From Candidatus Nomurabacteria bacterium (GTDB taxonomy: Bacteria; Patescibacteriota; Minisyncoccia; Phycocordibacterales; UBA9973): a DNA stretch of 64,000 nucleotides. The stretch is from the NCBI GenBank assembly GCA_031425235.1, contig JANPIZ010000008.1:91377-155376 (forward strand). The letters run 5' to 3'. Each line of letters starts with the position of its first letter. The stretch's first letter is position 1. The position numbers and the translations under genes were made by a program. The notes beneath the pieces were generated by a model. That model saw only the letters and a program-made list of their open reading frames with translations. It had not been told where the DNA came from and ran no database searches. Of this stretch, positions 1-61,014 are shown piece by piece.

Positions 1-357
1 GTGATGCTGATTTGAAAGGCGAGAGAGAACAAGGCGGTAGCCACCAAGGCTTCCCTTAAGCCATTTTGATATGCGGGCAATTGTCGTAGAAGAAAGCCCT
101 GTGCTCTCACTGATAGCATTGTACTGCACATCTCTTGAGAGTAGGGAAGCAGCTTCGAGTCTATTTGCGAATTCTTGTATTTCACCTTCAGTCATAAGGT
201 CACGTAGAAAAGATTCAGCTTCTTGTGTATTTTTCAAAGCCAAAAAAGCTTGCACGAGTTGCTTGTTTTCAGGTTGGTTCCAGTCAATGTTTGACCCGAT
301 ACCTTGAACCATCTCTACTGTTTTAATATTCGTATTTTTATTCATTCCTTTACTCAT
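1..357 (-). CDS. TrpR-like YerC/YecD family DNA-binding protein (3' end runs off the window)
   Basis: Minus-strand ATG at 355-357. Translation MSKGMNKNTNIKTVEMVQG...FLRDLMTEGEIQEFANRLEAASLL...ISESTGLSSTTIARISKWLKGSLGGYRLVLSRL matches the YerC/YecD (TrpR-like) family along its whole length. It is absent from the ORF track only because it has no in-window stop. Confidence 0.8.
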   Translation of the reverse strand, partial: MSKGMNKNTNIKTVEMVQGIGSNIDWNQPENKQLVQAFLALKNTQEAESFLRDLMTEGEIQEFANRLEAASLLSRDVQYNAISESTGLSSTTIARISKWLKGSLGGYRLVLSRLSNQHH

Positions 358-358
358 C

Positions 359-430
359 CCAGTACTAAAATTTTAAGTTTATATTAATATCGACTCTTGT
401 CCGTAATCAAAAATTTAGTACGGGACAAGT
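359..430 (-). repeat. Copy 1 (reverse orientation) of a ~70-bp TIR-bearing upstream cassette; abuts the yerC-like start codon
   Basis: About 85-90% identical to 10677-10745 and 21602-21673. Terminal inverted repeats are GTACTAAA(A)TTTT ... AAAATTTTAGTAC, with an internal cccgta/tacggg hairpin. Confidence 0.75.
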
Positions 431-443
431 ACAGCTACTTTAT

Positions 444-473
444 CAAACTAAAGTACTTTAGTCAAGTAAAGTA
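444..473. repeat. Copy 1 of a 29-nt motif containing the perfect palindrome CTAAAGTACTTTAG
   Basis: caaACTAAAGTACTTTAGTCAAGTAAAGTA is repeated almost exactly at 6337-6365. Confidence 0.7.
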
Positions 474-587
474 TAAAAATCGCTGTGGAAAACTTTACTT
501 AGGTAAAGTAGGTAATTAAAGCTTTATTTAAATAAAATAAAAAGTCAGCATTCTTGTTTTGAATTACTGACTTTTTTGATAATTTAT

Positions 588-5734: not shown

Positions 5735-6325
5735 ATGGATGAATTAGAAACAAAAATTGAATCAGTGTTATTTTGGAAAGGTGAGCCCATGTCACGAAAA
5801 AAGCTCGCGACTATTTTGAAAGTTTCTGAAAATGAAATAAACGATGCAGTAGAGAAACTTAAAAACAATTTGGCACACAGAGGCATCGTGTTACAAGAAA
5901 AAGAGAATGAAATAAATCTCGGTACAGCGCCCCAAATATCAAATTTAATTGAGGAACTTCGTAAAGAGGAGTTGAACAAGGAGCTTTCAAAGGCAACACT
6001 AGAAACATTATCAATCGTCCTTTACAAAAATGGAGCTACACGTGCTGAGATAGATTATATCCGTGGAGTAAATTCGAGCTTCACATTGCGTGCGCTTTCA
6101 GTGCGAGGATTAGTAGAGAAAACAGTAAGTGAGACAGATAACCGACGCTATATATACAAACCAACATTTGAACTCCTTTCATTTATGGGTGTGGCGAAGA
6201 TAGAGGACTTACCAGACTACGAACAAGTAAATAACTCAATACATAATGCTGTAAAAGAAGAGGATGTGGTCGCCGAAGAGTTGCCGATTCAAAACTTAGA
6301 AGATGAAACCACCTTCGAAAATTAA
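5735..6325 (+). CDS. scpB: segregation and condensation protein B
   Basis: Winged-helix ScpB pattern (EAxLF..GEP...L, TLETLSIVLYKNGATRAEIDYIRGV). Confidence 0.8.
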   Translation: MDELETKIESVLFWKGEPMSRKKLATILKVSENEINDAVEKLKNNLAHRGIVLQEKENEINLGTAPQISNLIEELRKEELNKELSKATLETLSIVLYKNGATRAEIDYIRGVNSSFTLRALSVRGLVEKTVSETDNRRYIYKPTFELLSFMGVAKIEDLPDYEQVNNSIHNAVKEEDVVAEELPIQNLEDETTFEN

Positions 6326-6336
6326 CTGACTTTATT

Positions 6337-6365
6337 CAACTAAAGTACTTTAGTCAAGTAAAGTA
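6337..6365. repeat. Copy 2 of the CTAAAGTACTTTAG-containing motif; abuts the start codon of Cys-rich paralogue 1
   Basis: Identical 27-nt core to 444-473. It ends 4 nt before the ATG at 6370. Confidence 0.7.
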
Positions 6366-6369
6366 AAAA

Positions 6370-8076
6370 ATGAAACAAGAAAGTGAAACAAAATCGTGCC
6401 AGAATTGCAAACAAGACTTTACTATCGAGCCGGACGATTTTGGATTTTATGAAAAAATAAAAGTACCTCTGCCAACTTTTTGCTCAGAATGCCGCAGGCA
6501 AAGAAGGCTTGCATGGAAGAATACATACAACTTATACAACAATTCTTGTAGTCTTTGTGGTAAAAACATTATTTCAATATATTCCCCTGATTCCTCTTTA
6601 ATTATTTACTGTGTTAGCTGTTTTTGGAGTGATAAATGGGATGCATATCAATACGGGCAAGATTTTGACCCTAATAGGTCTTTTTTTGAACAGTATATAG
6701 ATCTTAATAAAAAGGTACCAAAAATAGCTTTAATGAATGATGATGGTATTGCAAGTGTAAATAGTGCTTATTGTCACGATGTTGCTTTTTCGAAAAATTG
6801 CTACATGGTATTTATTTCCTGGAAACTTGAAAATGTGATGTATTCAGGAATGTTAAACAAGGGTCGCGAAATATGCGATTGCCTTTGCATGCAAGATTTT
6901 TGTGAGTATATGTACGAGTCAATGTTTGTAGATGAATGTTATAAATGCAGATATGTGACGTATGGTAGCATGCTACAAAATTGCGATTTTTGTTATGATT
7001 GTCGTGAGTGCAGTGATTGCTTTATGAGCTTTGGCTTGCGTAATAAAAAATATTTTTATAAGAACAAACAGTATTCCAAAGAAGAATACGAAAAAATTCT
7101 TAAATCTTATCAATTGCATACACGAACGGGTTGGGAAAGAGCCAAAAATGAATATAAAGAATTTATAATAACTTATCCTCGTCGTTTTGCTATGATAAGG
7201 AATTCAGTTAACTGTACGGGAGATGACCTTATAAGATGTAAAAACACGAGAGATTCCTTTTTTGCTCCCTTTAGTGAAGACTCTCGCTTTGTTGCAGGAG
7301 GGGTTAATTTTAAGAATTGTTATGATTTGTCTGGTGGAGGGGAAGTAGAGTATAGTTATGAATCTATCACGCCCGATCAATCATATAATAATTTTTTTAG
7401 TATCTATTCTTGGAAAAATAAAGAAATAGCTTATTGTGATAATTGTCATTCGTCTAATAACCTTTTTGGTTGTGCAAGCTTGAAAAAAGGTGAATACTCA
7501 ATATTAAATAAGAAATATTCAAAAGAAGATTATTTTAAATTAAAAGAAAAAATAATAATAAAAATGAAACATGATGGGGAATGGGGAGAATTTTTTCCAG
7601 TTCGATATTCATATTTTGGATATAATGAAACTGAAGCTTTTGATATGAATATTTTATCAAAACATGAAGCTGAAAATTTAAACTATAAATGGCGAGATAA
7701 TTTACAAAGAACTATTGGACAAGAAACTATCTCTCAAAAGGAAATACCAGATTCTATTTTTGATACAACTGAGTATATTTTATATGAAATTTTAAAATGT
7801 GAATCTTGCTCTCGAAATTATAAAGTTACGAACGACGAGCTGGTGTTTTACAAAAGAATGAATGTACCTATTCCAAAAATTTGCTTTTTCTGTAGAAATA
7901 AAAATCGCTTAAATACTAGAAATCCGTTTAAGCTTTGGCATCGCTCATGTATGTGTACTGTCAAGAATCACTTTCATGGAGAAAATAATTGTAAAATAGA
8001 ATTTGAAACTTCCTATGCCCCTGATCGGCCGGAGATGGTATATTGTGAAAAATGTTATCAAGCTGAAGTTTACTAG
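6370..8076 (+). CDS. Large cysteine-rich protein, paralogue 1 (unrecognised family; terminal zinc-ribbon-like motifs plus internally duplicated Cys-repeat core)
   Basis: 568 aa. N-terminal CQNCKQDF...FYEKIKVPLPTFCSECRRQRRL...C..C is repeated near the C-terminus (FYKRMNVPIPKICFFCRNKNRL...C.C). N-K-K-Y-S-K-E-E/D-Y occurs twice. The protein aligns end to end at roughly 40% identity with the ORF at 47848-49554. Confidence 0.8.
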   Translation: MKQESETKSCQNCKQDFTIEPDDFGFYEKIKVPLPTFCSECRRQRRLAWKNTYNLYNNSCSLCGKNIISIYSPDSSLIIYCVSCFWSDKWDAYQYGQDFDPNRSFFEQYIDLNKKVPKIALMNDDGIASVNSAYCHDVAFSKNCYMVFISWKLENVMYSGMLNKGREICDCLCMQDFCEYMYESMFVDECYKCRYVTYGSMLQNCDFCYDCRECSDCFMSFGLRNKKYFYKNKQYSKEEYEKILKSYQLHTRTGWERAKNEYKEFIITYPRRFAMIRNSVNCTGDDLIRCKNTRDSFFAPFSEDSRFVAGGVNFKNCYDLSGGGEVEYSYESITPDQSYNNFFSIYSWKNKEIAYCDNCHSSNNLFGCASLKKGEYSILNKKYSKEDYFKLKEKIIIKMKHDGEWGEFFPVRYSYFGYNETEAFDMNILSKHEAENLNYKWRDNLQRTIGQETISQKEIPDSIFDTTEYILYEILKCESCSRNYKVTNDELVFYKRMNVPIPKICFFCRNKNRLNTRNPFKLWHRSCMCTVKNHFHGENNCKIEFETSYAPDRPEMVYCEKCYQAEVY

Positions 8077-10667: not shown

Positions 10668-10676
10668 TAAAAATAT

Positions 10677-10745
10677 TTGTCCCGTACTAAATTTTTGATT
10701 ACGGGGTATAATGATAAATATTAATATTTAAAATTTTAGTACTGG
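10677..10745 (+). repeat. Copy 2 of the ~70-bp TIR-bearing upstream cassette; abuts the protease start codon
   Basis: ttgtcccgtactaaatttttgattacgggg...aaaattttagtactgg followed directly by the ATG at 10747. Confidence 0.75.
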
Positions 10746-10746
10746 C

Positions 10747-11649
10747 ATGAAGGAAAAAATTCACAAACATATGTATAAGATATTTCTAGGAGTGCTCGCA
10801 CTCGCGGTAATTTTTTCTATTATATATACTGGCGTTCATTATTTTAATGTGTATAAACAACAACAGGCTGAAGCATTAGCAGTACAGAGCAAAGAGCAAT
10901 CTGAGATCCAAAGCGAAGCAGCTCTTAAAGATAAAGCTCGCGATGAGGAGATAGCTTTATTAAAGCAACAGCTTACCGAACTACAAAACAAACCTATTGA
11001 AACAAAAACAATAAACAATACCGTTCAAGTTGAGGCCAAAGATCCCGTAGCGAATATTGTTAAAAAATGGAGCCCTCGAGTAGCTCATATGGAATGCCAT
11101 TGGTTTGATACAAATGATAAGTTGTATGCAAAAGGTTCAGGTTCGGCAACACTTGTTAATTTTTATGGTTTGGGGATGCGAGCTGTTACGAATAAACATT
11201 TGATGGTATATAAAAGTTATCTCCCTAAAAGTTGTGATGTCGAACTTACCTCTGGCGCTACATATACAATACCTATAACGAAAGATAATGTAAGTATTGG
11301 CGAAAATGAAGACTGGGCATATGTGACCTTGCCGAAAGATGGTGTGCTGTCGTCGATAACTGCAAAAGATGTGCGTGCTTGTAAAAATGTTGAAGTAGGA
11401 GACAAAGTACTCATCTTAGGGTATCCCAAAATTGGCTCAAAAATAGGTCTTACTGTAACCGAAGGCATTGTTTCTGGAAATGATAAAAATTATTATATTA
11501 CGTCTGCCAAAATTGACAAAGGTAACTCGGGCGGCGCGGCTATTTTAGTGGAAGATGATTGCTACCTTGGTATTCCGTCAGCATCGGTTGTCGGACAAAT
11601 AGAAAGCCTCGGGCGAATACTTAAATCAAGCTTTGTAATAGGTGGATAG
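10747..11649 (+). CDS. membrane-anchored trypsin-like (S1) serine protease
   Basis: N-terminal TM helix. Catalytic His (TNKH), Asp and Ser (GNSGG) are in canonical order. Confidence 0.75.
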   Translation: MKEKIHKHMYKIFLGVLALAVIFSIIYTGVHYFNVYKQQQAEALAVQSKEQSEIQSEAALKDKARDEEIALLKQQLTELQNKPIETKTINNTVQVEAKDPVANIVKKWSPRVAHMECHWFDTNDKLYAKGSGSATLVNFYGLGMRAVTNKHLMVYKSYLPKSCDVELTSGATYTIPITKDNVSIGENEDWAYVTLPKDGVLSSITAKDVRACKNVEVGDKVLILGYPKIGSKIGLTVTEGIVSGNDKNYYITSAKIDKGNSGGAAILVEDDCYLGIPSASVVGQIESLGRILKSSFVIGG

Positions 11650-12810: not shown

Positions 12811-12934
12811 ATTTCAACCTCCTTTTCCTTATTAATTTTACCACAAACTCAAAAGGAATAGTTTTCAAAGGATAGTTGAAAAAAGCCTTTTAATATTTAA
12901 TATTTTGAGCCTCAGGTTTCCCGTGACGACGTGA

Positions 12935-13021
12935 TTGACAAATCAGTGTTTTTGTGATATACTATAAGAGTATGACTGGATTTAATTTTTTAATTCCAGA
13001 TCTCTTCGTTGAAAATAAAAT
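12935..13021 (+). promoter_or_regulatory. Promoter (TTGACA-N17-TATACT) plus conserved 5' leader, copy 1
   Basis: 100% identical over ~75 nt to 32085-32160. Contains the ctgga...tccag hairpin. Confidence 0.65.
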
Positions 13022-13024
13022 AAT

Positions 13025-13828
13025 ATGAAAATTTTGCAAAACAAAAAAGTCCGCTTTGCGGCAATTTTATTGGTTGCGTTGTTGGCAGCGTTGTCAACTC
13101 TTAATGCACAACCTGCGGAAGCAGTCACAGCCGAATTCGGCAACTACTTTGAAAGTGTTAAAAAGCTTAACCCCACGGTTAAGAATTTTCACACAATGAA
13201 CGTCGGCGAGGTCTATGGTTTGCCGGACGGCAAAACTGACCACCTCGAAGAAGGCGACACCGAAGGAATTTGGGGTCGCGAGCTGAGAAAATGGAATCAA
13301 CTTCGTTTGGATCCGGTGACCTCAGGTCAACCGTATGTAAACGGCGGAATTAGTCCCGATAACCCGGAACAGCTTGAACGTCAATTTGACAATCAAGCGC
13401 GATTTATGTCTGGGGGTCGTCAGTTTCCTGAACGCATCAGTCCCATTCAAAAAGGGAAAATTTTCGGCGAAGGACTCGTCGGCTATTTAGACCAAGGTTT
13501 TCAACCTCGTAAAATTGATGAGCCGGGCGTACCGGCATATCAGGCGACCTACAGATTCGCCAACGGGGAAGAAATTACCCTTCAATCTTTGATGGGTTGC
13601 ATGAACCCGATCGAAGAAGGTATTGGTCAAACGCGTAAAGGTTACACTTTCGTGCCGGACGGACAAAATCCGGATGTTGTTCCGCTCACGGTAGCGGACA
13701 ATAACGACAAGGGTAAAGACAAGGATTTCAATGGGAATTATATTCTCGGAGGATTTTTGTTTGCTTGTTTATTCGTTCGCCAACCCCCGTCGAAAGACCG
13801 GAAAAAATTACTATTTCTTTTGGTGTAG
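13025..13828 (+). CDS. secreted hypothetical protein (signal peptide), anomalously GC-rich
   Basis: N-terminus KKVRFAAILLVALLAALSTLNAQPAEA. Body is visibly GC-richer than surrounding genes. A possible C-terminal extension by frameshift is described in the findings. Confidence 0.6.
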   Translation: MKILQNKKVRFAAILLVALLAALSTLNAQPAEAVTAEFGNYFESVKKLNPTVKNFHTMNVGEVYGLPDGKTDHLEEGDTEGIWGRELRKWNQLRLDPVTSGQPYVNGGISPDNPEQLERQFDNQARFMSGGRQFPERISPIQKGKIFGEGLVGYLDQGFQPRKIDEPGVPAYQATYRFANGEEITLQSLMGCMNPIEEGIGQTRKGYTFVPDGQNPDVVPLTVADNNDKGKDKDFNGNYILGGFLFACLFVRQPPSKDRKKLLFLLV

Positions 13829-13994
13829 GCGGCAATCCGATTGCCAAAAGCAACAAGAGAAATAAAAAATATGAAGTTGTGAAAAATAAAACTGGCAGCC
13901 TCTCCGTCCGAGAAGTCAAAACCAGAAAAAAATCATAACGTTCAAGACCAACTGGAGGTGTAAACCAGCAGGCGATACTCTAACGTCAAAAGTT

Positions 13995-14045
13995 TTAGAG
14001 AATCTAAAATTGTCCGGCGACGTCTTATTCAAGACTCGCCGGCTT
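13995..14045. terminator. Bidirectional hairpin between the secreted-protein gene and rmuC
   Basis: ccggcgacgtctt...aagactcgccgg followed by ctttttgttttt. Confidence 0.5.
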
Positions 14046-14052
14046 TTTGTTT

Positions 14053-21592: not shown

Positions 21593-21601
21593 AAAATAAT
21601 A

Positions 21602-21673
21602 CTTGTCCCGTACTAAATTTTTGATTACGGGGCATAAAAATAAACATTATTAATTTAAAATTTTAGTACCGGG
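21602..21673 (+). repeat. Copy 3 of the ~70-bp TIR-bearing cassette, inside the operon and abutting the ABC ATPase start codon
   Basis: cttgtcccgtactaaatttttgattacgggg...ttaaaattttagtaccggg followed directly by the ATG at 21674. Confidence 0.75.
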
Positions 21674-22354
21674 ATGATTAAAGTAAAAAATTTAGTAAAA
21701 ACATATAAGGATGGCGATATTGAGACTTCTGTGTTACGAGGGATTGATTTGGAAGTGAGAGAAGGCGAATTCCTCGGAATTATGGGAAAGTCAGGAGCAG
21801 GAAAGTCGACTTTCATGTATCAGATTGGACTACTAGACCATCCAACTGGGGGAGAAATTGTTTTAAATAATATCAATACTGAAAGTATGACTACGGAGGA
21901 GAGAACTCATCTGCGTCTTACAGAGCTAGGTTATGTGTTTCAAGATTATGCGCTTATTCCTGAACTTACTGCAGCTGAAAACGTAATGATCCCGCTTCTG
22001 ATGAAGGGACATACGAAAACTGAGGCCCGTGATGTGTCGGTAAAAATGCTTGAACGTATCGGCTTGTCGCATAGAATGGATAATAAGCCGAGCCAGCTTT
22101 CTGGAGGAGAACAACAACGAGTATCGATCGCGAGAGCGACAGCGCACAATCCTAAGATTTTATTTGCCGACGAACCAACGGCAAACCTTGATACCACGTC
22201 AGGACTTTCGATAATTGAACTTTTTAAAGATTTACATAAAGCTGGGCAAACTATTGTGATGGTTACCCATGAGGAAGAGTACGCAAAGTATTGCGACAGA
22301 GTTGTATACCTCGAAGATGGAAAAATAGTCCGAGAATTTAAACCTGGTAAATAA
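21674..22354 (+). CDS. ABC transporter ATP-binding protein (MacB/LolD-like)
   Basis: Walker A GKSGAGKST, signature LSGGEQQRV and Walker B ILFADEPT. Confidence 0.9.
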   Translation: MIKVKNLVKTYKDGDIETSVLRGIDLEVREGEFLGIMGKSGAGKSTFMYQIGLLDHPTGGEIVLNNINTESMTTEERTHLRLTELGYVFQDYALIPELTAAENVMIPLLMKGHTKTEARDVSVKMLERIGLSHRMDNKPSQLSGGEQQRVSIARATAHNPKILFADEPTANLDTTSGLSIIELFKDLHKAGQTIVMVTHEEEYAKYCDRVVYLEDGKIVREFKPGK

Positions 22355-22828: not shown

Positions 22829-24254
22829 ATATTACTACACAATTGGACTAGAAATACACGCAGAGCTAAAAACTTTGACGAAGATGTTTTGTGGGTGTAA
22901 GAATGACCCAGATGAAACTAAACCAAATGTAAATATTTGCCCGGTGTGTATGGCTCATCCAGGTGCTCTTCCGGTAATAAATAAAAAGGCTATAGAACAA
23001 GTAATAAAAGTTGGCCTTGCTGTCGATGCAAAGATTGCTGACTTTTCAGAATTTGATCGTAAAAACTATTTCTATCCAGATATTCCAAAGGGCTACCAGA
23101 TTTCACAATATAAATATCCAATAGTTTCTGGCGGCCATTTGGCTGATATGGACATCACCCGTATTCACCTCGAGGAAGATACTGCGAACAATAAACACCG
23201 CGGAGAAATATCACTTATCGATTTCAATCGTGCCGGAGTGCCGCTTATGGAGCTCGTAACTGAGCCGCATACATTTGAGTCAGCGGAAGAAGCTGCTAAA
23301 ACAGCGAGTAATTTTGCCAAAGAATATCAACTCATTTTATGGTACCTCGGAGCTTCGGAAGCAAATATGGAAAAAGGCGAGATGCGTGTAGAAGCTAATG
23401 TATCTGTGTCTCCAGATAAAGACAAAAAATGGACAAATTATGTAGAGGTGAAAAACCTAAATTCTTTTAAAAGTGTCGAGCGAGCTATCAAATTTGAGGT
23501 AGAACGCATGACAGCTTTGTGGAATGAAGGTAAAGAGAATGAAATAATAAAAGAGACGAGAGGTTTCGACGAAAGTAAACAAAAAACATTTTCACAGCGC
23601 TCAAAAGAAAACGCTGAGGATTATAGGTATTTCCCTGATCCAGATTTACCGAAACTCAAGCTTTACGAAGCTTTTGATATAGAAAAAATGAAAGCTGAAT
23701 TACCAGAATTACCAGTAGCTAAACGCGCTCGTTATAAAAATGATTTCGGAATTAAAGATGAGGATATAGAAATATATATAAATGACCTTGAAATAGGCTA
23801 TTGGTTTGAGAGTATTGCAAAATTATTAGGTGAAAAGGATAAAGTAAAAATTGCATCGAATTACATAACTTCAGATTTCTTAGGTCTCAAAAAGACCAAC
23901 TTGGCGACCAGGTCGCCAAGTGCGGAAAATTTCACTGAGTTGATAAATTTAGTTTCAGAAAATAAATTATCTTCACGAAGCGCAAAAGATATTCTTGCTA
24001 TGATAGTCATAAACGATGAATCACCATTACAAATAGCTACAGAAAAGAATTTACTTCAGAGTAATGATGAAGGTGCACTAAAAGAAATTGTCCAAAAAAT
24101 AATTGATGAAAATCCTGAGCCAGTGGCTTCGTATAAATCAGGTAAGGAAAATGCTATTATGTCACTCGTCGGGAAAATAATAAAAGCTTCCAATGGTGCT
24201 GCAAACCCTCAAGTGGTTATCAAACTTCTCAAAGAAATGCTCGCCTCGTCGTAG
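22821..24254 (+). CDS. gatB: Asp/Glu-tRNA amidotransferase subunit B
   Basis: Full-length GatB with the C-terminal YqeY-like domain. Contains the 23-bp palindromic insert at 23899-23921. Confidence 0.9.
   Translation: MNKYYYTIGLEIHAELKTLTKMFCGCKNDPDETKPNVNICPVCMAHPGALPVINKKAIEQVIKVGLAVDAKIADFSEFDRKNYFYPDIPKGYQISQYKYPIVSGGHLADMDITRIHLEEDTANNKHRGEISLIDFNRAGVPLMELVTEPHTFESAEEAAKTASNFAKEYQLILWYLGASEANMEKGEMRVEANVSVSPDKDKKWTNYVEVKNLNSFKSVERAIKFEVERMTALWNEGKENEIIKETRGFDESKQKTFSQRSKENAEDYRYFPDPDLPKLKLYEAFDIEKMKAELPELPVAKRARYKNDFGIKDEDIEIYINDLEIGYWFESIAKLLGEKDKVKIASNYITSDFLGLKKTNLATRSPSAENFTELINLVSENKLSSRSAKDILAMIVINDESPLQIATEKNLLQSNDEGALKEIVQKIIDENPEPVASYKSGKENAIMSLVGKIIKASNGAANPQVVIKLLKEMLASS
23899..23921. 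repeat. 23-bp perfect palindrome inserted in frame in gatB
   Basis: acttggcgaccaggtcgccaagt encodes NLATRSPSA. The identical sequence occurs in topA at 59851-59873. Confidence 0.85.
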
Positions 24255-32030: not shown

Positions 32031-32072
32031 TACTCCAAACATTTATTTATATATGTAAAATGGTTACAGTGT

Positions 32073-32160
32073 TTGACAAAACACTGTTTTTGTGATATAC
32101 TATAAGAGTATGACTGGATTTAATTTTTTAATTCCAGATCTCTTCGTTGAAAATAAAATT
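32073..32160 (+). promoter_or_regulatory. Promoter (TTGACA-N17-TATACT) plus conserved 5' leader, copy 2
   Basis: Identical to 12947-13021. Confidence 0.65.
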
Positions 32161-32649
32161 ATGAAAAATAAAAAAGTGAGCCTGCTTCGAACGGCACTTT
32201 TTACGTTTTTGTTCCTGGTTACGTTATTGGGGTCAATAACAAAAACGTCGGCACAAGTAACCTCAACTGCTACCTATAAAGTTGAGATACAAAAATTTAC
32301 TGTCGGAAGCTTATTCCCGAAAGCGCTCATCACGTTTTCGGAAAAAATTGCAGATCGGGAGGAATATTTTCGGTCTACAACAGCGAGTTTCGCTATAAAG
32401 TCCAAAGACGCTTCGCCTTTAATGGCGAAGTTGCAACAACAGGCGGTCGAAACCCCGTCACAAGGGATTTTGAACAAATTTTCCTTTTATATCAAAGATG
32501 ATGTAATGGAAATCCATTTTATTTTGAGAAATGAATTCACTGATTGTGAATTCATCGAAAAAATCGAAAAAATCATCGAAACGATAAAAGAAGAAAAATT
32601 TAAAAATAAAGTTCTGAAAAGAACATCGCTGACGTTCACGCAAAAATAA
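32161..32649 (+). CDS. secreted hypothetical protein (signal peptide homologous to that of the 13025 gene)
   Basis: MKNKKVSLLRTALFTFLFLVTLLGSITKTSAQV. The track ORF starts upstream at 32092, but the leader is shared, so ATG 32161 is preferred. Confidence 0.55.
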   Translation: MKNKKVSLLRTALFTFLFLVTLLGSITKTSAQVTSTATYKVEIQKFTVGSLFPKALITFSEKIADREEYFRSTTASFAIKSKDASPLMAKLQQQAVETPSQGILNKFSFYIKDDVMEIHFILRNEFTDCEFIEKIEKIIETIKEEKFKNKVLKRTSLTFTQK

Positions 32650-32897
32650 GTGAACATTAGCAAAAAAGAAAAATCGGTCGAGAGTATCTACTCTTGATCG
32701 ATTTTTTTAATTTTATATACAAAAAGTTGATGTAGGCTCGATTTCTACAACTTTTAAATTGCTTTTATTTCGCCTTATGTTAGAATTACTTCAGTAGTAA
32801 GTTTCTCGTTTTAGGACAAGAATTTCTACACCTGGCCTCGCAGGCAGGGATTATAAATAGTTTTTGCCGGAGTTTTAAAAAACCGGAGAAATAAGTT

Positions 32898-47847: not shown

Positions 47848-49554
47848 ATGACAAGTGAAACAAAAAATTGTCAAAATTGTAAAACAGATTTTGTAATAGA
47901 ATCTGGAGACTTTAACTTTTATGAAAAAATAAAAGTTCCACCGCCGACCTTTTGTCCGAACTGTAGACTTACGCGTAGATTTCTCCATTCAAATGAAATG
48001 GTGTTATACAAACGTAAATGCGACCTGACTCAAAAAGATATTTTTAGCATGTATCCACCTAAAACACTTTTTCCTGTCTATGAGACATCGGAGTGGTATT
48101 CTGACAAATGGGATGCATATGAATATGGGATGGATTTCGATGAGACCAGACCCTTTTTAGAGCAATTTTTAGAGCTCCAAAATAAAGTACCGCGTATGGC
48201 TCTGACACAACAAGGTCAAACAATTAATAGTGCGTATACTCATAGAGTATCTTATCCAAAAAACTCATACATGGCTTTTCGAGCTTCTTATCCAGAGGAT
48301 TGTTTGTATGTGTATAACGCCAAGTACACTCGAAATTGCGCTGACTCAATATGGATTTTTGACTCAGATCTTTGTTATGAATGTATAAATGTAGAAAATT
48401 GTTACAACTTAAAATATAGTCAAGAATGCAAAGATTCCCGTGATTCCAGCTTTTTATACAGTTGTAAAAACACCTCAAATTCAACTTTATGTGTTAATTT
48501 AGTCAACGCAGAGTGCTGTATTTGGAATAAAAAATATACAAAAGAAGAGTACGTCAAAAAATTAGCAAACATGGGACTCAATAAATTTTCTAACGTTGAG
48601 AAGCTAAAGAAAGAGTTTGAAGAGTTTAGAAAGAAATTTCCACAAAGAGCTGTGGCTTCATTAAAATCTGAGCAAGTGTCTGGTAACTGGTTTTCGGGTT
48701 GCAAAAATGTTCATGAATCATTTGATTGCGTCAATGTAAAAGATGGCAAATATTTATTCATGGTTTTCAATGCCGAAGATTGTATGGATTTTTTCGAATG
48801 GGGCAACAAAGCCGAGCAAATCTATGAGACAACTAATGCTGGTCTCAATGTTGCCAGATTATACTTTTGCTTTCAGTGTTGGATGGGAGCAACAGATCTG
48901 TATTACTGCAACACATGTCCTGGTGCACGAAACTGCTTTGGTTGCGTGGGTCTAAAGAAAGGCGAATACTCTATTCTAAACAAGAAGTATTCGAAAGAAG
49001 AATATGAAATTTTAAAAGAAAAAATTATTAAGCATATGCAAAAAATGCCTTTTATAAGTAATACTGGTATTGAATATAAATTTGGGGAATTTTTTCCTCC
49101 AGAATTTTCAGATCATGCTTATAATGAAACCATCGCAAATTATTATTTTCCACTTTCACAAGAGGAAGCTTTGTCTCGCGGTTATAAATGGAAAGACAAG
49201 GAAAAAGTAGTCCACCAGACGACAGTCAAAGCTAAGGATCTGCCAGACACAATAGAAGAAGTAACTGACGCCATACTCAATGAAATCATAGAGTGCGGAG
49301 AAAAAGATAATCCAGAATCAGTTGGAGCGTTTCGCATAACTCCAAATGAGCTCAATTTTTATAGGAAAATGAATATTCCACTACCGAGAGTATGCTTTAG
49401 CATCAGACACTTGCGCCGGATGGACAGGAGACCAAAACTAAACATTTTTAAGAGAAAATGTGATAAGTGTAGTGTTGAAGTTGAAACAGTATATACTAAA
49501 GAGCATGCACCGGTATTGTATTGTGAAAAATGTTATCAACAAGAAGTTTACTAA
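47848..49554 (+). CDS. Large cysteine-rich protein, paralogue 2
   Basis: 568 aa with the same architecture as 6370-8076. Identical C-terminus YCEKCYQ.EVY. Conserved LKKGEYSILNKKYSKEEY block. Confidence 0.8.
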   Translation: MTSETKNCQNCKTDFVIESGDFNFYEKIKVPPPTFCPNCRLTRRFLHSNEMVLYKRKCDLTQKDIFSMYPPKTLFPVYETSEWYSDKWDAYEYGMDFDETRPFLEQFLELQNKVPRMALTQQGQTINSAYTHRVSYPKNSYMAFRASYPEDCLYVYNAKYTRNCADSIWIFDSDLCYECINVENCYNLKYSQECKDSRDSSFLYSCKNTSNSTLCVNLVNAECCIWNKKYTKEEYVKKLANMGLNKFSNVEKLKKEFEEFRKKFPQRAVASLKSEQVSGNWFSGCKNVHESFDCVNVKDGKYLFMVFNAEDCMDFFEWGNKAEQIYETTNAGLNVARLYFCFQCWMGATDLYYCNTCPGARNCFGCVGLKKGEYSILNKKYSKEEYEILKEKIIKHMQKMPFISNTGIEYKFGEFFPPEFSDHAYNETIANYYFPLSQEEALSRGYKWKDKEKVVHQTTVKAKDLPDTIEEVTDAILNEIIECGEKDNPESVGAFRITPNELNFYRKMNIPLPRVCFSIRHLRRMDRRPKLNIFKRKCDKCSVEVETVYTKEHAPVLYCEKCYQQEVY

Positions 49555-58725: not shown

Positions 58726-61014
58726 CTATGCTATCTTATTTAATTTATGAGGGTTGTGCATTTTACATGCCTTATTACTACAACGCTCAGGAATTGTTTT
58801 CGTGCCTTCCATCATTAAACTACTGCATTCTTTACATATATTGCCGGTAGGTTTAGCTTTTATCGCAAACTTACATTTTGGATAGTTAGAGCAAGAGTAG
58901 AAAACACCAAATCTTCCACGTCTCTCTGAAATATCTCCAGTTTTACACTCTGGACACATTACTCCAGTTCGCTTTTTAGCTTCATCAGCCTCATCGCTTT
59001 TTACATATTTACATTTTGGGTACCTTGAACATGAAATAAATGTTCCTGAGCCATCTCTGCGTTCACGTACTACTAATTTACCACCCATATCTTTTTTTCT
59101 TTTACCTTCGGCTTCAGCCAAAGCTACTGCAGGCGAAGAACACTGTGGGCATGGTTCGCCAGTTTCCTTTGGGCCTTGTAGTTGAGTACCGTCGAGCATT
59201 AGTGCTCCATCACAATCAGGATATTTTGAACACGAATAAAATTTACCCACACGCGCGAGTTTGATGATCATCTCACTACCGCATTTGGGACACTTCATAT
59301 TTTCTGGAGCATCGCCCAGATTTGTCGCCTTATCGAGTTTGTCTTTTGCTTTCACTTCTTTCAAAAATGGTCCGTAGAAATCTTTGAGAGTTTTTTCATA
59401 CTCACGTTCCCCACGTGAAATTTCATCCAGTTCATCTTCCATCTCGGCAGTGAATGTATCAGAAATATAATTTGCAAAATGTGCTTCAAGAAAATCAGAC
59501 ACGACTTCGCCCGTATCGGTAGGGAATAACGTCTTGCCTTCTTTGTGGACATAGCCTCTGTCTTCAATTGTTCGCATAATAGATGCATACGTAGAAGGCC
59601 GACCAATACCTCGGTTTTCAAGTTCTTTCACAAGTCCCGCTTCGCTATAACGCCCTGGTGGTTCGGTAAATTTTTCTTCGCTTATCAAATTTAGTAATTT
59701 TAACTTTTCTCCAACTTTACATAGTGGTAACTCGACATCGTCACCTCGTGCACCGGTATCTACCTTGAGCCATCCAGGAAAAAGAAGTCGTGAACCTTTT
59801 GCATTAAAGTCTGTAATATCCTTGTCCTTGGCGCCCTGGTCGCCATGTGCACTTGGCGACCAGGTCGCCAAGTTAGCCAAATTTGCGGTAATTTTTGTTT
59901 TGAGTAACTTTGCATCGGTCATTTGTGAGGAAATAGCCCGCTCCCAAATGAGTCGATACAGTTTTTGTTGTTCGTCCGTGCCTGCATGCAACTTCTCTAT
60001 ATGTGTCGGTCGTATTGCTTCGTGTGCTTCTTGGGCATTTTTAGATTTTGTTTTATATGTCCTTTTTTCAGCATACTCGGTACCGTATTCTTTTTTTACA
60101 AAAGATAAAATCTGATCTTGGGCTGCCACAGATAAATTCGTACTGTCTGTACGCATATAGCTAATATGTCCAGCCTCATACAACTTCTGTGCAAGCTGCA
60201 TTGTACGCGAAGGAGAATAGCCAAGGCGAGAACTCGCTGTCTGTTGAAGTGTTGAAGTCGTAAATGGTGCCCGTGGTGAACGTTTTTGTTCTGATTCTTT
60301 TACGCCTAAAATGCTCCAAGTACCCGCTTTACCTGCTTCCATTATTTTTTCCACCAGCTTTTCATCTCGTGGTTCTTCACTGCATTCTAATGTTAGCTTG
60401 TCACCTTTGGCTGTATCAAAAAGTCCTCGTATTCTCCAATATTTCTCTGGAATAAAAGCACGGATTTCTCGCTCCCGCTCCATAATTATCCGAAGTGCAG
60501 GGGATTGAACCCGGCCTGCCGAAAGTCCGTAACGCACTTTTTTCCATATGAGCCCTGAAAGGTCGTAGCCCACGAGTCGATCGAGCACTCTGCGTGCTTC
60601 CTGAGCTTTACGTAGATGTGTATCTATTTTACGTGGATGCTTGAGTGCTTCTTCTACTGCGGCCTTAGTGATTTCATGGAAAGCTACGCGTTCAATTGGC
60701 GCTTTGATTTTTTTGTCTTGTTTTAAAAGCTCTTCGATGTGCCAGGCTATTGCTTCACCTTCGCGGTCGGGGTCAGTCGCGAGCAGTATATCAGTAGCTT
60801 TTTTTGCGAGTTCCTGCAATTCGTGTACTACTTTTTCTTTGCCTTTTGAGATTTCATAATGAGGAATAAATCCACCTTCGATATCGATAGCTGCCTTATT
60901 TGATTTTGGTAAGTCACGAATGTGTCCGACAGACGCACGAACAGTAAAAGCGCCTTCGAGATATTTCTCGATTGTTTTCGCTTTTGATGGTGACTCAACA
61001 ATTAATAATTTCAT
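58726..61014 (-). CDS. topA: DNA topoisomerase I with C-terminal zinc ribbons
   Basis: MKLLIVESPSKAKTI Toprim N-terminus, catalytic-Tyr region and multiple Cys4 ribbons. The ATG at 61012-61014 is preferred over the track's upstream start. Confidence 0.9.
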   Translation of the reverse strand: MKLLIVESPSKAKTIEKYLEGAFTVRASVGHIRDLPKSNKAAIDIEGGFIPHYEISKGKEKVVHELQELAKKATDILLATDPDREGEAIAWHIEELLKQDKKIKAPIERVAFHEITKAAVEEALKHPRKIDTHLRKAQEARRVLDRLVGYDLSGLIWKKVRYGLSAGRVQSPALRIIMEREREIRAFIPEKYWRIRGLFDTAKGDKLTLECSEEPRDEKLVEKIMEAGKAGTWSILGVKESEQKRSPRAPFTTSTLQQTASSRLGYSPSRTMQLAQKLYEAGHISYMRTDSTNLSVAAQDQILSFVKKEYGTEYAEKRTYKTKSKNAQEAHEAIRPTHIEKLHAGTDEQQKLYRLIWERAISSQMTDAKLLKTKITANLANLATWSPSAHGDQGAKDKDITDFNAKGSRLLFPGWLKVDTGARGDDVELPLCKVGEKLKLLNLISEEKFTEPPGRYSEAGLVKELENRGIGRPSTYASIMRTIEDRGYVHKEGKTLFPTDTGEVVSDFLEAHFANYISDTFTAEMEDELDEISRGEREYEKTLKDFYGPFLKEVKAKDKLDKATNLGDAPENMKCPKCGSEMIIKLARVGKFYSCSKYPDCDGALMLDGTQLQGPKETGEPCPQCSSPAVALAEAEGKRKKDMGGKLVVRERRDGSGTFISCSRYPKCKYVKSDEADEAKKRTGVMCPECKTGDISERRGRFGVFYSCSNYPKCKFAIKAKPTGNICKECSSLMMEGTKTIPERCSNKACKMHNPHKLNKIA
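59851..59873. repeat. 23-bp perfect palindrome inserted in frame in topA, with a degenerate tandem copy at 59826-59847
   Basis: acttggcgaccaggtcgccaagt encodes NLATWSPSA. The adjacent ccttggcgccctggtcgccatg encodes HGDQGAKD. Confidence 0.85.

What the first reader, a model, noticed from the sequence alone, without database searches (positions are those of the whole stretch)
12935..13021. A promoter plus 5'-leader module that is 100% identical over ~75 nt is duplicated 19 kb apart and drives two different secreted proteins that share only a homologous signal peptide
The sequence from tgtttttgtgatatactataagagtatgactggatttaattttttaattccagatctcttcgttgaaaataaaat is identical at 12947-13021 and 32085-32160. 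It is preceded in both copies by TTGACA at consensus spacing to TATACT. The downstream proteins both begin M-K-x-x-NKKV...hydrophobic...AQ..(V)T but have unrelated mature regions. Perfect identity in non-coding DNA while the coding sequences diverge implies recent gene conversion, a mobile promoter/signal-peptide cassette, or strong constraint such as a structured leader (the ctgga...tccag hairpin) or a small RNA.
Basis: seen in the sequence. Interest (0 to 1): 0.7.

Follow-up and report, generated by a model that had tools for sequence, protein, structure and literature searches.

The report
Reused promoter and leader before two genes
A strong promoter with its 5' leader, native to a conserved surface-protein gene of a Patescibacteria genome, has recently been copied in front of a newly inserted, nearly orphan secreted-protein gene; this is a clean but ordinary case of bacterial promoter reuse.

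Summary
75 nt are identical at 12947-13021 and 32085-32159. The wider module is 94 nt at 96%, with sharp borders just upstream of the -35 box and at the ATG. It is not an assembly artefact: independent k=31 unitigs from the same read set stop exactly 30 nt inside the repeat from both sides.

The module has three parts: the best sigma-70 match in the window (TTGACA-17-TGnTATACT), a 5'-proximal hairpin, and an A/U-rich start region without a Shine-Dalgarno sequence.

Copy A is probably the ancestral one. Syntenic ORF A orthologs carry the same promoter-plus-hairpin architecture, but with different leader sequences.

Copy B lies in a 727-nt lineage-specific insertion between prfA and an RRM-protein gene. 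The insertion holds promoter, leader, ORF B and terminator, and is absent from all relatives examined (prfA 91-94% identical).

ORF A and ORF B are unrelated. ORF B has only one remote homolog, which has its own leader. The leader is not sequence-constrained: it is 26/61 identical to a relative whose RmuC is 94% identical. The perfect identity therefore indicates a recent copy or gene conversion, not a conserved RNA.

There is no Rfam match, no mobile-element hallmark and no further copy found. The copy number in the rest of the genome could not be tested. This fits the published "putative mobile promoter" doublet. It is a new member of a known kind, of modest interest.

The parts
12931..13024 (+). 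Module copy A (probably ancestral): promoter plus 5' leader of ORF A. The exact core is 12947-13021.
   Evidence: The orthologous locus in L002 has the same architecture and the same 61-nt distance from the -10 box to the ATG.
12935..12963 (+). Sigma-70-type promoter: -35 TTGACA at 12935-12940, 17-nt spacer, TG at 12955-12956, -10 TATACT at 12958-12963. The predicted transcription start is about 12970-12972.
   Evidence: 11 of 12, TG present. Best match in the window. The start site is inferred from spacing only.
12976..12999 (+). 5'-proximal leader hairpin CTGGATTTAA-TTTT-TTAATTCCAG. It is followed by the unpaired A/U-rich stretch 13000-13024, which has no Shine-Dalgarno sequence.
   Evidence: MFE -9.4 to -11.2 kcal/mol, z about -1.8 to -1.9. 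Every ORF A ortholog leader has a hairpin in the same position but with an unrelated sequence.
12972..13028 (+). Possible 18-codon upstream ORF (MTGFNFLIPDLFVENKII). It starts 9 nt after the -10 box, and its TGA stop overlaps the ORF A start (ATGA). Whether it is functional is doubtful.
   Evidence: Read directly. The same length and the same ATGA overlap occur in L002, but the peptide is not conserved (4 of 18). In L003 the frame is only 2 codons long.
13025..13828 (+). ORF A: 267 aa with a signal peptide and a C-terminal hydrophobic segment. It belongs to a small uncharacterised Patescibacteria family and lies next to rmuC.
   Evidence: No Pfam domain. Some family members have a sub-threshold LysM-like N-terminus.
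32031..32757 (+). 727-nt lineage-specific insertion between the prfA stop codon and the conserved leader of the RRM-protein gene. TAA is present at both joints.
   Evidence: Alignment with L024, L025, L026, L028 and L029, in which prfA and the RRM gene are only about 143-168 nt apart.
32069..32162 (+). Module copy B (probably derived): -35 at 32073-32078, -10 at 32096-32101, hairpin at 32114-32137, exact core at 32085-32159.
32066..32087 (+). 9-bp palindrome ACAGTGTTT-GACA-AAACACTGT that encloses the -35 box and is followed by TTTTTGTG. It looks like an intrinsic terminator for prfA. Relative to copy A, two of its three differences form one compensatory pair.
   Evidence: The A/B differences at 12934/12943/12946 versus 32072/32081/32084 were read.
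32161..32649 (+). ORF B: 162 aa with a signal peptide. It has only one remote homolog. The public annotation starts it at ATG 32110, inside the leader, giving 179 aa.
32667..32708 (+). Intrinsic terminator of ORF B (19-bp stem followed by a T-run).

Best explanation
The 94-nt module is the native expression signal of ORF A. It consists of a near-consensus sigma-70 promoter with an extended -10 box, followed by a roughly 55-nt 5' UTR. The UTR begins with a hairpin and ends in an unstructured A/U-rich start region. A copy of this module, from just upstream of the -35 box to the ATG (possibly a few codons further), now drives ORF B. ORF B is a secreted protein with almost no relatives, and it lies inside a 727-nt insertion found only in this lineage.

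The copy arose recently, either by non-homologous or microhomology-mediated duplication or by a short gene-conversion tract. The perfect identity reflects how recent the event is, not sequence constraint.

The likely consequence is that ORF B is transcribed strongly and in parallel with ORF A from a ready-made promoter. The 5' hairpin probably acts as a generic mRNA-stabilising stem-loop.

Shown: the repeat, its borders, the promoter match, the insertion, the synteny, the divergence of the orthologous leaders, and the non-homology of the two proteins.

Inferred: promoter activity, the transcription start site, the role of the hairpin, the direction A to B, and the mechanism of copying.
For: - Repeat and sharp borders.
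- Promoter quality: 11 of 12 plus TG, the best in the window.
- Copy A is probably ancestral. ORF A orthologs are syntenic (tRNA, small membrane gene, ORF A, rmuC) and all carry a consensus promoter plus a 5'-proximal hairpin.
- L002 shares with copy A the promoter core (22 of 29), the TSS-proximal ATA.G.G.ATG, the 3' TTGAAAA..TAATATG, and the identical 61-nt distance from -10 to ATG. Leader identity is 26 of 61, p = 0.016.
- Copy B is probably derived. All relatives examined (prfA 91-94% identical) have prfA directly followed by the RRM gene, and the window has 727 extra nt exactly at the prfA stop codon.
- ORF B has only one remote homolog (34% identity), which uses a different leader with a Shine-Dalgarno sequence.
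- Recency. Non-coding DNA between the window and L002 is about 40% identical while coding DNA is 80-90% and RmuC is 94% identical. 75 of 75 within one genome must therefore be much younger than that split.
- Not an artefact.
- The pattern matches the published class of putative mobile promoters, in which doublets are the commonest family size and identical pairs are read as the most recent events (PMC3488235).
Against: - Divergence across the copied segment is not uniform. There are 0 mismatches in the central 75 nt, 3 of 16 in the 5' flank, and only about 80% identity with indels in a possible 3' extension into the CDS. A single recent copy does not explain this. It needs a second event (conversion), selection on the flanks, or chance flank similarity.
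- The direction A to B rests mainly on a modest leader similarity to one ortholog (p = 0.016). The hairpin segment itself differs between the window and L002, so a B to A conversion tract is not excluded.
- The core promoter of the ORF B homolog (L031) also resembles the module, matching 12 of 17 spacer positions.
- There are no expression data.
- The rest of the genome (at least 108 kb of the same contig, plus other contigs) could not be searched, so the copy number is a lower bound.
Confidence: 0.7

Rival explanations
1. The two copies are older, and the central 75 nt are kept identical by repeated gene conversion or by strong purifying selection. On this reading the leader is a functional cis-regulatory RNA: a shared binding site for a protein or small RNA, or a leaderless upstream ORF coupled to the main start through ATGA. 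It would place two secreted proteins in one post-transcriptional regulon.
For: - Identity is non-uniform: 0 of 75 mismatches in the core against diverged flanks.
- The hairpin position is conserved in all ortholog leaders.
- An ATG lies 9 nt after the -10 box. An 18-codon frame ending in ATGA is present in both the window and L002.
- Neither start codon has a Shine-Dalgarno sequence.
Against: - The orthologous leader in a relative with 94% identical RmuC shares only 26 of 61 positions, and its hairpin has an unrelated sequence. Sequence-specific recognition is therefore not conserved.
- The upstream ORF peptide is not conserved (4 of 18). It is only 2 codons long in L003 and absent further out.
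- In copy B a 2-nt difference fuses that frame to ORF B, which argues against a constrained coupling arrangement.
- Lack of a Shine-Dalgarno sequence is the norm in this genome: only 7-18 of 58 genes have such a motif, against a 12% background.
- No Rfam match.
- The fold z-score is only about -1.8.
Confidence: 0.13
2. The direction is reversed. ORF B arrived with its own promoter and leader, and a short B to A conversion tract overwrote the native ORF A leader.
For: - The hairpin segment of copy A has no counterpart in the L002 leader.
- The ORF B homolog in L031 has a similar core promoter, TTGACAAAAATATGTTTTTATGGTATTAT.
Against: - The L031 leader after the -10 box is unrelated to the module and has a Shine-Dalgarno sequence.
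- Copy A keeps the ortholog's exact 61-nt distance from -10 to ATG and the similar TSS-proximal and ATG-proximal ends, whereas copy B has 59 nt.
Confidence: 0.12
3. The module is a small non-autonomous mobile element (MITE-like), or a phage- or plasmid-borne promoter cassette, that inserts in front of genes.
For: - The same sequence lies in front of unrelated cargo.
- The 5' border coincides with a palindrome.
Against: - Only two copies in 64 kb, with up to 3 mismatches allowed.
- No terminal inverted repeats or target-site duplication at the module ends.
- No hits in viral contigs or JGI metagenomes.
- One unrelated chance hairpin among 185,579 genomes.
- Only a generic promoter-like 38-nt match in phages.
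Confidence: 0.03
4. Assembly artefact: a collapsed or chimeric repeat.
For: The source is a metagenome-assembled contig, and the repeat is shorter than a read.
Against: - Independent Logan unitigs reach 30 nt into the repeat from the prfA side and from the ORF A side. They branch exactly at the ends of the exact repeat.
- Both outer flanks are syntenic with relatives.
Confidence: 0.02

Closest known systems
Putative mobile promoters / promoter propagation (Matus-Garcia, Nijveen and van Passel 2012, PMC3488235; Nijveen et al. 2012, PMC3575422)
   Same: - Highly similar upstream regulatory sequence, at least 50 nt at 80% identity or better, in front of non-homologous CDSs and with non-homologous upstream neighbours.
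- A two-member family found in a single genome, read as a recent duplication by recombination.
- Proposed role in giving newly acquired genes a working promoter.
   Different: - Here the donor and recipient sites and the associated 727-nt insertion can be reconstructed from relatives.
- The copied unit includes the whole 5' UTR up to the ATG.
- The published pipeline sampled -150 to -50, which overlaps this module by only about 45 nt, so it would probably have missed this case.
- The host is a Patescibacteria genome, a group probably not represented among the 1362 complete genomes of May 2011 used in that survey (my inference; I did not check the genome list).
5'-terminal stabilising stem-loops of highly expressed mRNAs, such as E. 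coli ompA and B. subtilis aprE leaders (from general knowledge, not tested here)
   Same: - The hairpin begins within a few nucleotides of the predicted 5' end.
- It is followed by an unstructured translation start region.
- Its position is conserved in orthologs but its sequence is not.
   Different: - No transcript 5' end or half-life data exist here.
- The hairpin is weak (about -9 kcal/mol, z about -1.9).
Gene-conversion homogenisation of short repeats (general concept)
   Same: A perfectly identical core with diverged flanks.
   Different: A 75-nt tract is short. There is no independent evidence here for an older duplication.

Membership tests
Putative mobile promoter (PMP) doublet, in the sense of PMC3488235 | Upstream regions align over at least 50 nt at 80% identity or better | tested here: met
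   94 nt at 96%, of which 75 nt are exact.
Putative mobile promoter (PMP) doublet, in the sense of PMC3488235 | Downstream CDSs do not align | tested here: met
   BLASTP E = 3.3. tblastn of ORF B against the window finds only itself. Caveat: there is marginal DNA similarity over the first 45 nt or so.
Putative mobile promoter (PMP) doublet, in the sense of PMC3488235 | Upstream neighbours do not align | tested here: met
   Copy A follows a divergent small membrane-protein gene and a tRNA. Copy B follows prfA. There is no similarity upstream of 12931 / 32069.
Putative mobile promoter (PMP) doublet, in the sense of PMC3488235 | Similarity falls inside the operational window of -150 to -50 from the start codon | tested here: inconclusive
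   The module spans -94 to -1. Only about 45 nt lie inside that window, which is below the paper's 50-nt cut-off.
Sigma-70-type promoter | -35 and -10 hexamers at 16-18 nt spacing | tested here: met
   TTGACA, 17 nt, TATACT with an upstream TG; 11 of 12 in both copies.
Sigma-70-type promoter | Transcription starts 6-9 nt downstream of the -10 box | not testable with these tools
   No transcriptome data are available.
Curated cis-regulatory RNA or small RNA family (Rfam 15) | Covariance-model score at or above the gathering threshold | tested here: not met
   Nothing at gathering in the window apart from 4 tRNAs. The best permissive hits score 18 bits or less against thresholds of 40-60.
MITE / IS-derived mobile element | Terminal inverted repeats, target-site duplication and multiple dispersed copies | tested here: not met
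   No terminal inverted repeats at the ends of the module or of the insertion. Two copies only. No hits in the collections searched. The rest of the genome was not searchable.
5' stabiliser stem-loop | Hairpin within a few nucleotides of the mRNA 5' end, conserved in position | tested here: inconclusive
   Predicted in both window copies and in the 8 ortholog leaders folded, but the start sites are inferred and the z-scores are modest.
5' stabiliser stem-loop | Increases mRNA half-life | not testable with these tools
   Needs an experiment.
Leaderless upstream ORF with termination-reinitiation coupling | AUG at or next to the transcript 5' end, and a stop codon overlapping the main start | tested here: inconclusive
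   The ATG lies 9 nt after the -10 box, with an ATGA overlap in copy A and in L002. In copy B the frame is fused to ORF B, in L003 it is only 2 codons long, and it is absent in more distant orthologs.

The most novel reading that the evidence does not exclude
The 75-nt core is not merely young. It is held identical because it works as a unit: a near-leaderless transcript whose 5' AUG opens an 18-codon upstream ORF, plus a hairpin, that sets translation of Shine-Dalgarno-less secreted-protein genes by termination-reinitiation (ATGA). On this reading the unit is a portable expression and regulation cassette that Patescibacteria attach to newly acquired surface-protein genes. The palindromes enclosing the -35 box, which show compensatory changes between copies, would be part of the unit, either as an insulating terminator or as a recombination hotspot.
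Probability: 0.1. Interest if true: 0.6.

Novelty: new member of a known kind. Interest (0 to 1): 0.3.

Why it matters
The case shows, with donor site, recipient site and insertion borders all reconstructed, how a reduced Patescibacteria genome gave a newly arrived, almost orphan secreted-protein gene a ready-made strong promoter and 5' UTR. That supports the idea that promoter reuse helps integrate new genes.

There are two practical consequences:
- The public start of ORF B (179 aa) is probably 17 codons too long, because it reads into the duplicated leader.
- The module is a candidate strong constitutive promoter and UTR for a group of bacteria that has no genetic tools.

It does not reveal a new kind of element or mechanism.

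Tried and rejected
- **Genome-wide copy count.** The single genome-contig scan, using the 24-nt hairpin, hit only an unrelated hairpin in Lentilactobacillus rapi. The window's genome is evidently not in that collection, so the copy number outside the window remains unknown.
- **JGI metagenome scan** with a 23-mer from the leader: 0 hits.
- **Two viral scans:** 0 hits.
- **Phage blastn:** only a generic 38-nt promoter-like match.
- **Rfam** at the gathering threshold and at E up to 10: nothing credible.
- **Structure of ORF B** predicted without an alignment: mean pLDDT 47, unusable, so no fold search was run.
- **Pfam and PDB sequence searches** of the ORF A family, and Pfam searches of ORF B and its homolog: no assignments. 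Only a sub-threshold LysM-like hit appeared in some ORF A relatives.
- **Exact look-up of the 162-aa ORF B:** not on record, because the public gene call uses the upstream ATG.
- **Contig breaks as a sign of repeats in relatives.** I first suspected that the contig breaks about 220-300 nt upstream of the ORF A orthologs marked a repeat there too. They fall inside a conserved tRNA gene instead.
- **Palindrome at the -35 box as an operator for a dimeric regulator:** rejected, because the arms differ completely between copy A, copy B, L002 and L003.
- **Hairpin as attenuator or terminator:** rejected, because no U-tract follows it.
- **Hairpin as thermosensor:** rejected, because the start codon is unpaired in the predicted fold.
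- **Missing Shine-Dalgarno sequence as a special feature:** rejected, because most genes in the window lack one.

Full report
**Observation**

The 75-mer TGTTTTTGTGATATACTATAAGAGTATGACTGGATTTAATTTTTTAATTCCAGATCTCTTCGTTGAAAATAAAAT occurs exactly twice, at 12947-13021 and 32085-32159. It appeared in none of 100 dinucleotide-preserving shuffles. Ungapped extension gives 94 nt at 96% identity, 12931-13024 versus 32069-32162.

A pairwise alignment of 400 nt around each copy shows no similarity upstream of 12931. Downstream, identity collapses at the start codon.

Both copies carry TTGACA, a 17-nt spacer and TATACT preceded by TG, matching 11 of 12 consensus positions. A scan of the whole window shows these are the two best sigma-70 matches present.

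**Not an artefact**

The window comes from a 172,293-bp NCBI contig. An independent Logan assembly (k=31 unitigs) of run SRR20217183 contains two relevant contigs:
- The contig that carries prfA ends at window position 32114.
- The contig that carries ORF A starts at window position 12992.

Both are otherwise identical to the window. These ends lie exactly 30 nt (k-1) inside the exact repeat, from the left and from the right. That is what a de Bruijn graph produces at a true repeat with two different continuations. Synteny of both outer flanks with relatives (see below) fixes the pairing of the arms.

**Organism and genes**

The prfA homologs place the organism in Patescibacteria / Paceibacterota, Nomurabacteria-like.

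ORF A (13025-13828, 267 aa) has a signal peptide and a C-terminal hydrophobic segment. It has no Pfam domain. It has 10 homologs besides itself among 5.8 billion proteins, an uncharacterised family.

ORF B (32161-32649, 162 aa) also has a signal peptide. The word-indexed search found only ORF B itself. A full HMMER scan of 1.84 billion representatives found one real homolog, P0133, at 34% identity and E = 1e-16.

ORF A and ORF B are unrelated (BLASTP E = 3.3).

**Copy A is probably the ancestral site**

ORF A orthologs are syntenic, in the order tRNA, small divergent membrane-protein gene, ORF A, convergent rmuC.

L002 is a very close relative: its RmuC is 94% identical. Upstream of its ORF A ortholog it has:
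- TTGACA-17-TGnTATAAT.
- The same 61 nt between the -10 box and the ATG.
- A similar TSS-proximal ATAGGGGAATG, against ATAAGAGTATG in the window.
- A similar ATG-proximal TTTGAAAAATTAATATG.
- A hairpin of unrelated sequence in between.

Leader identity is 26 of 61 (shuffle p = 0.016) and the promoter core matches 22 of 29.

More distant orthologs (L003, L005, L011, L014, L015, L017, L020) also combine a near-consensus promoter with a leader of 46-111 nt. Its first element is a hairpin beginning 0-10 nt from the predicted 5' end. All 10 leaders folded have negative z-scores, from -0.35 to -3.45. So the architecture belongs to the ORF A locus, while the leader sequence turns over quickly.

**Copy B lies in a new insertion**

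Relatives with 91-94% identical prfA all have the order SLT, L31, prfA, RRM protein, ATP synthase, with only about 143-168 nt between prfA and the RRM gene. These are L024, L025 and L026/L027 (prfA 91-92% identical) and L029 (94%). L028 and L030, which carry the same prfA protein as L029, end inside or before the RRM gene.

In the window, the alignment places 727 extra nucleotides (32031-32757) exactly after the prfA stop codon. TAA is present at both joints, and the conserved RRM leader resumes at about 32757. The insertion contains:
- 38 nt of unknown origin.
- Module copy B.
- ORF B.
- A 19-bp-stem terminator at 32667-32708.
- About 48 further nucleotides.

Nothing else in the insertion resembles any other part of the window. 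The insertion has no terminal inverted repeats.

The one ORF B homolog (L031) has its own TTGACA-17-TATTAT promoter. Its leader is different and contains a Shine-Dalgarno sequence. The module is therefore not native to the ORF B family, although the core promoters are similar (12 of 17 spacer positions).

**Why the identity is perfect**

Between the window and L002, coding DNA is 80-90% identical, but intergenic DNA and the leader are only about 40% identical. The leader is thus not under sequence constraint. A 75/75 match within one genome must be far younger than that split.

Divergence is not uniform, however. The 16 nt on the 5' side differ at 3 positions. On the 3' side there is a possible, much more diverged extension of about 45 nt into the CDS:
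- Local score 27, with a codon-shuffle p of 0.0015.
- But 1 of 56 other gene starts in the window scores as high.
- Another gene in the window also begins MKNKN.
- The remainder of ORF B's signal peptide aligns with P0133.

Two scenarios fit this pattern:
- A slightly older duplication whose core was re-homogenised by a short conversion tract.
- A recent 75-94-nt copy or conversion tract whose flanks resemble each other for other reasons, namely the consensus -35 box and the lysine-rich start of signal peptides.

I cannot separate these two.

**Likely mechanism**

All of what follows is inferred.
- The module acts as a strong promoter with an extended -10 box, with transcription starting at about 12970 / 32108.
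- The hairpin CUGGAUUUAA-UUUU-UUAAUUCCAG (12976-12999 and 32114-32137) has an MFE of about -9.4 kcal/mol and a z-score of about -1.9. It sits at the 5' end and leaves the start codon unpaired.
- The hairpin's position is conserved but its sequence is not. That is what one expects of a generic 5' stabilising stem-loop rather than a specific ligand or protein site.
- No U-tract follows the hairpin, so it is not a terminator or attenuator.
- There is no Shine-Dalgarno sequence, but this is normal here. Only 7-18 of 58 crude gene calls have an SD-like 4-mer, against a 12% background.

**Upstream ORF**

An ATG at 12972, 9 nt after the -10 box, opens an 18-codon frame whose TGA stop overlaps the ORF A start (ATGA). 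L002 has an 18-codon frame with the same overlap. Several points argue against a function:
- The two peptides share only 4 of 18 residues.
- In L003 the frame is 2 codons long.
- More distant orthologs have no such ATG.
- In copy B a 2-nt difference puts this ATG in frame with ORF B, which is why the public annotation gives 179 aa.

I treat the upstream ORF as unproven. It forms the core of the 'novel case'.

**Unexplained: palindromes at the -35 box**

The -35 box sits in the centre of a palindrome whose arms differ between loci:
- Copy B: ACAGTGTTT-GACA-AAACACTGT, followed by TTTTTGTG. The scan flags it as terminator-like, and it would suit prfA.
- L002: a 12-bp stem, -19 kcal/mol, z = -5.6.
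- Copy A: only 5 bp.

Of the three A/B differences in this flank, two (12934/12943 versus 32072/32081) form one compensatory pair. The third (12946 versus 32084) creates a pair in copy B.

Because the arm sequences are not conserved, a protein operator is unlikely. An insulating terminator, or a hairpin-prone recombination site, remains possible.

**Comparison with known systems**

The case fits the concept of putative mobile promoters (PMC3488235). Those are upstream regions of at least 50 nt at 80% identity or better, lying in front of non-homologous CDSs and with non-homologous upstream neighbours. Doublets confined to one genome are read as recent recombination-mediated duplications that can wire newly acquired genes.

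All the sequence criteria were tested and met here. The exception is that the paper's sampling window (-150 to -50) overlaps this module by only about 45 nt.

The module is not an Rfam family. It is not MITE- or IS-like. It was not found in the viral, JGI metagenome or representative-genome collections.

**Verdict**

It is explained as promoter-plus-leader reuse linked to a recent gene insertion: a new member of a known kind. Interest is modest (0.3). The main gap is that the rest of the genome could not be searched for further copies.

Noticed in passing
window 10669-10750 (+), 21595-21677 (+), 327-431 (-): A second reused upstream module, with three copies. Its conserved blocks are TACTTGTCCCGTACTAAATTTTTGATTACGG and TTAAAATTTTAGTACYGGSATGA. 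Together they fold into a long hairpin that pairs the start codon region (MFE -16 to -25 kcal/mol, z -2.0 to -4.8). The copies lie upstream of a trypsin-like protease gene, an ABC ATPase gene (directly after its FtsX-like permease gene) and a gene that runs off the left end of the window. There is no Rfam match. It could be a translation-repressing leader or a small palindromic repeat element.
   Followed up: partly
window 32757-32897; L024 3976-4117; L025 3967-4108; L029 1551-1717: A conserved, apparently structured leader upstream of the RRM-type RNA-binding protein gene. It has two hairpins: CCTGGCCTCGCAGGCAGG, and GCCGGAG-TTTTAAAAAA-CCGGAG, whose 3' arm carries the Shine-Dalgarno sequence. 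It is conserved across relatives. It may be an autoregulatory leader.
   Followed up: no
window 32066-32087, 12932-12945; L002 about 2901-2928: Palindromes centred on the GACA of the -35 hexamer. The arm sequences are unrelated between loci, and there is a compensatory difference between copies A and B. The L002 version is very stable (z = -5.6). Their function is unknown.
   Followed up: partly
window 13025-14052 versus L002 3001-4460: The ORF A locus is hypervariable. The neighbouring RmuC is 94% identical between the two genomes, but ORF A is only 52% identical. Its C-terminal half cannot be aligned, and the window's version is shorter (267 aa against 341-419 aa in homologs).
   Followed up: partly
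L029 1550-1590 and L028 (same site): At exactly the position where the window carries the 727-nt insertion, these relatives have a tandem triplication of ATTGCTTTTAA. This suggests the prfA-RRM junction is prone to slippage or rearrangement.
   Followed up: no
window 32110-32160; L031 70-135: The public gene calls for ORF B (P0012, 179 aa) and for its homolog P0133 (172 aa) both start upstream of the likely true start, which is the Met immediately before the signal peptide. Both read into the leader.
   Followed up: partly
window 6381-7569 versus 47853-49041: Two stretches 41,472 nt apart share 70-74% DNA identity over at least 1.1 kb (families D2-D4 and D7). This is probably a diverged paralogous gene pair.
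   Followed up: no
window 23898-23932 and 59849-59884: The same GC-rich palindrome, ACTTGGCGACCAGGTCGCCAAGT, occurs twice, 36 kb apart (D10 and I12). It may be a shared terminator or a small palindromic repeat.
   Followed up: no
window 436-478 and 6311-6370: A repeated AAAGTA-rich motif, ACTTTATYMAACTAAAGTACTTTAGTCAAGTAAAGTA, occurs in two intergenic regions. In one of them it is tandemly overlapping (D5 and I7).
   Followed up: no
whole window: Shine-Dalgarno-like motifs are rare upstream of genes. They occur at 7 of 58 first ATGs, against a background of 12% in random 15-mers.
   Followed up: partly
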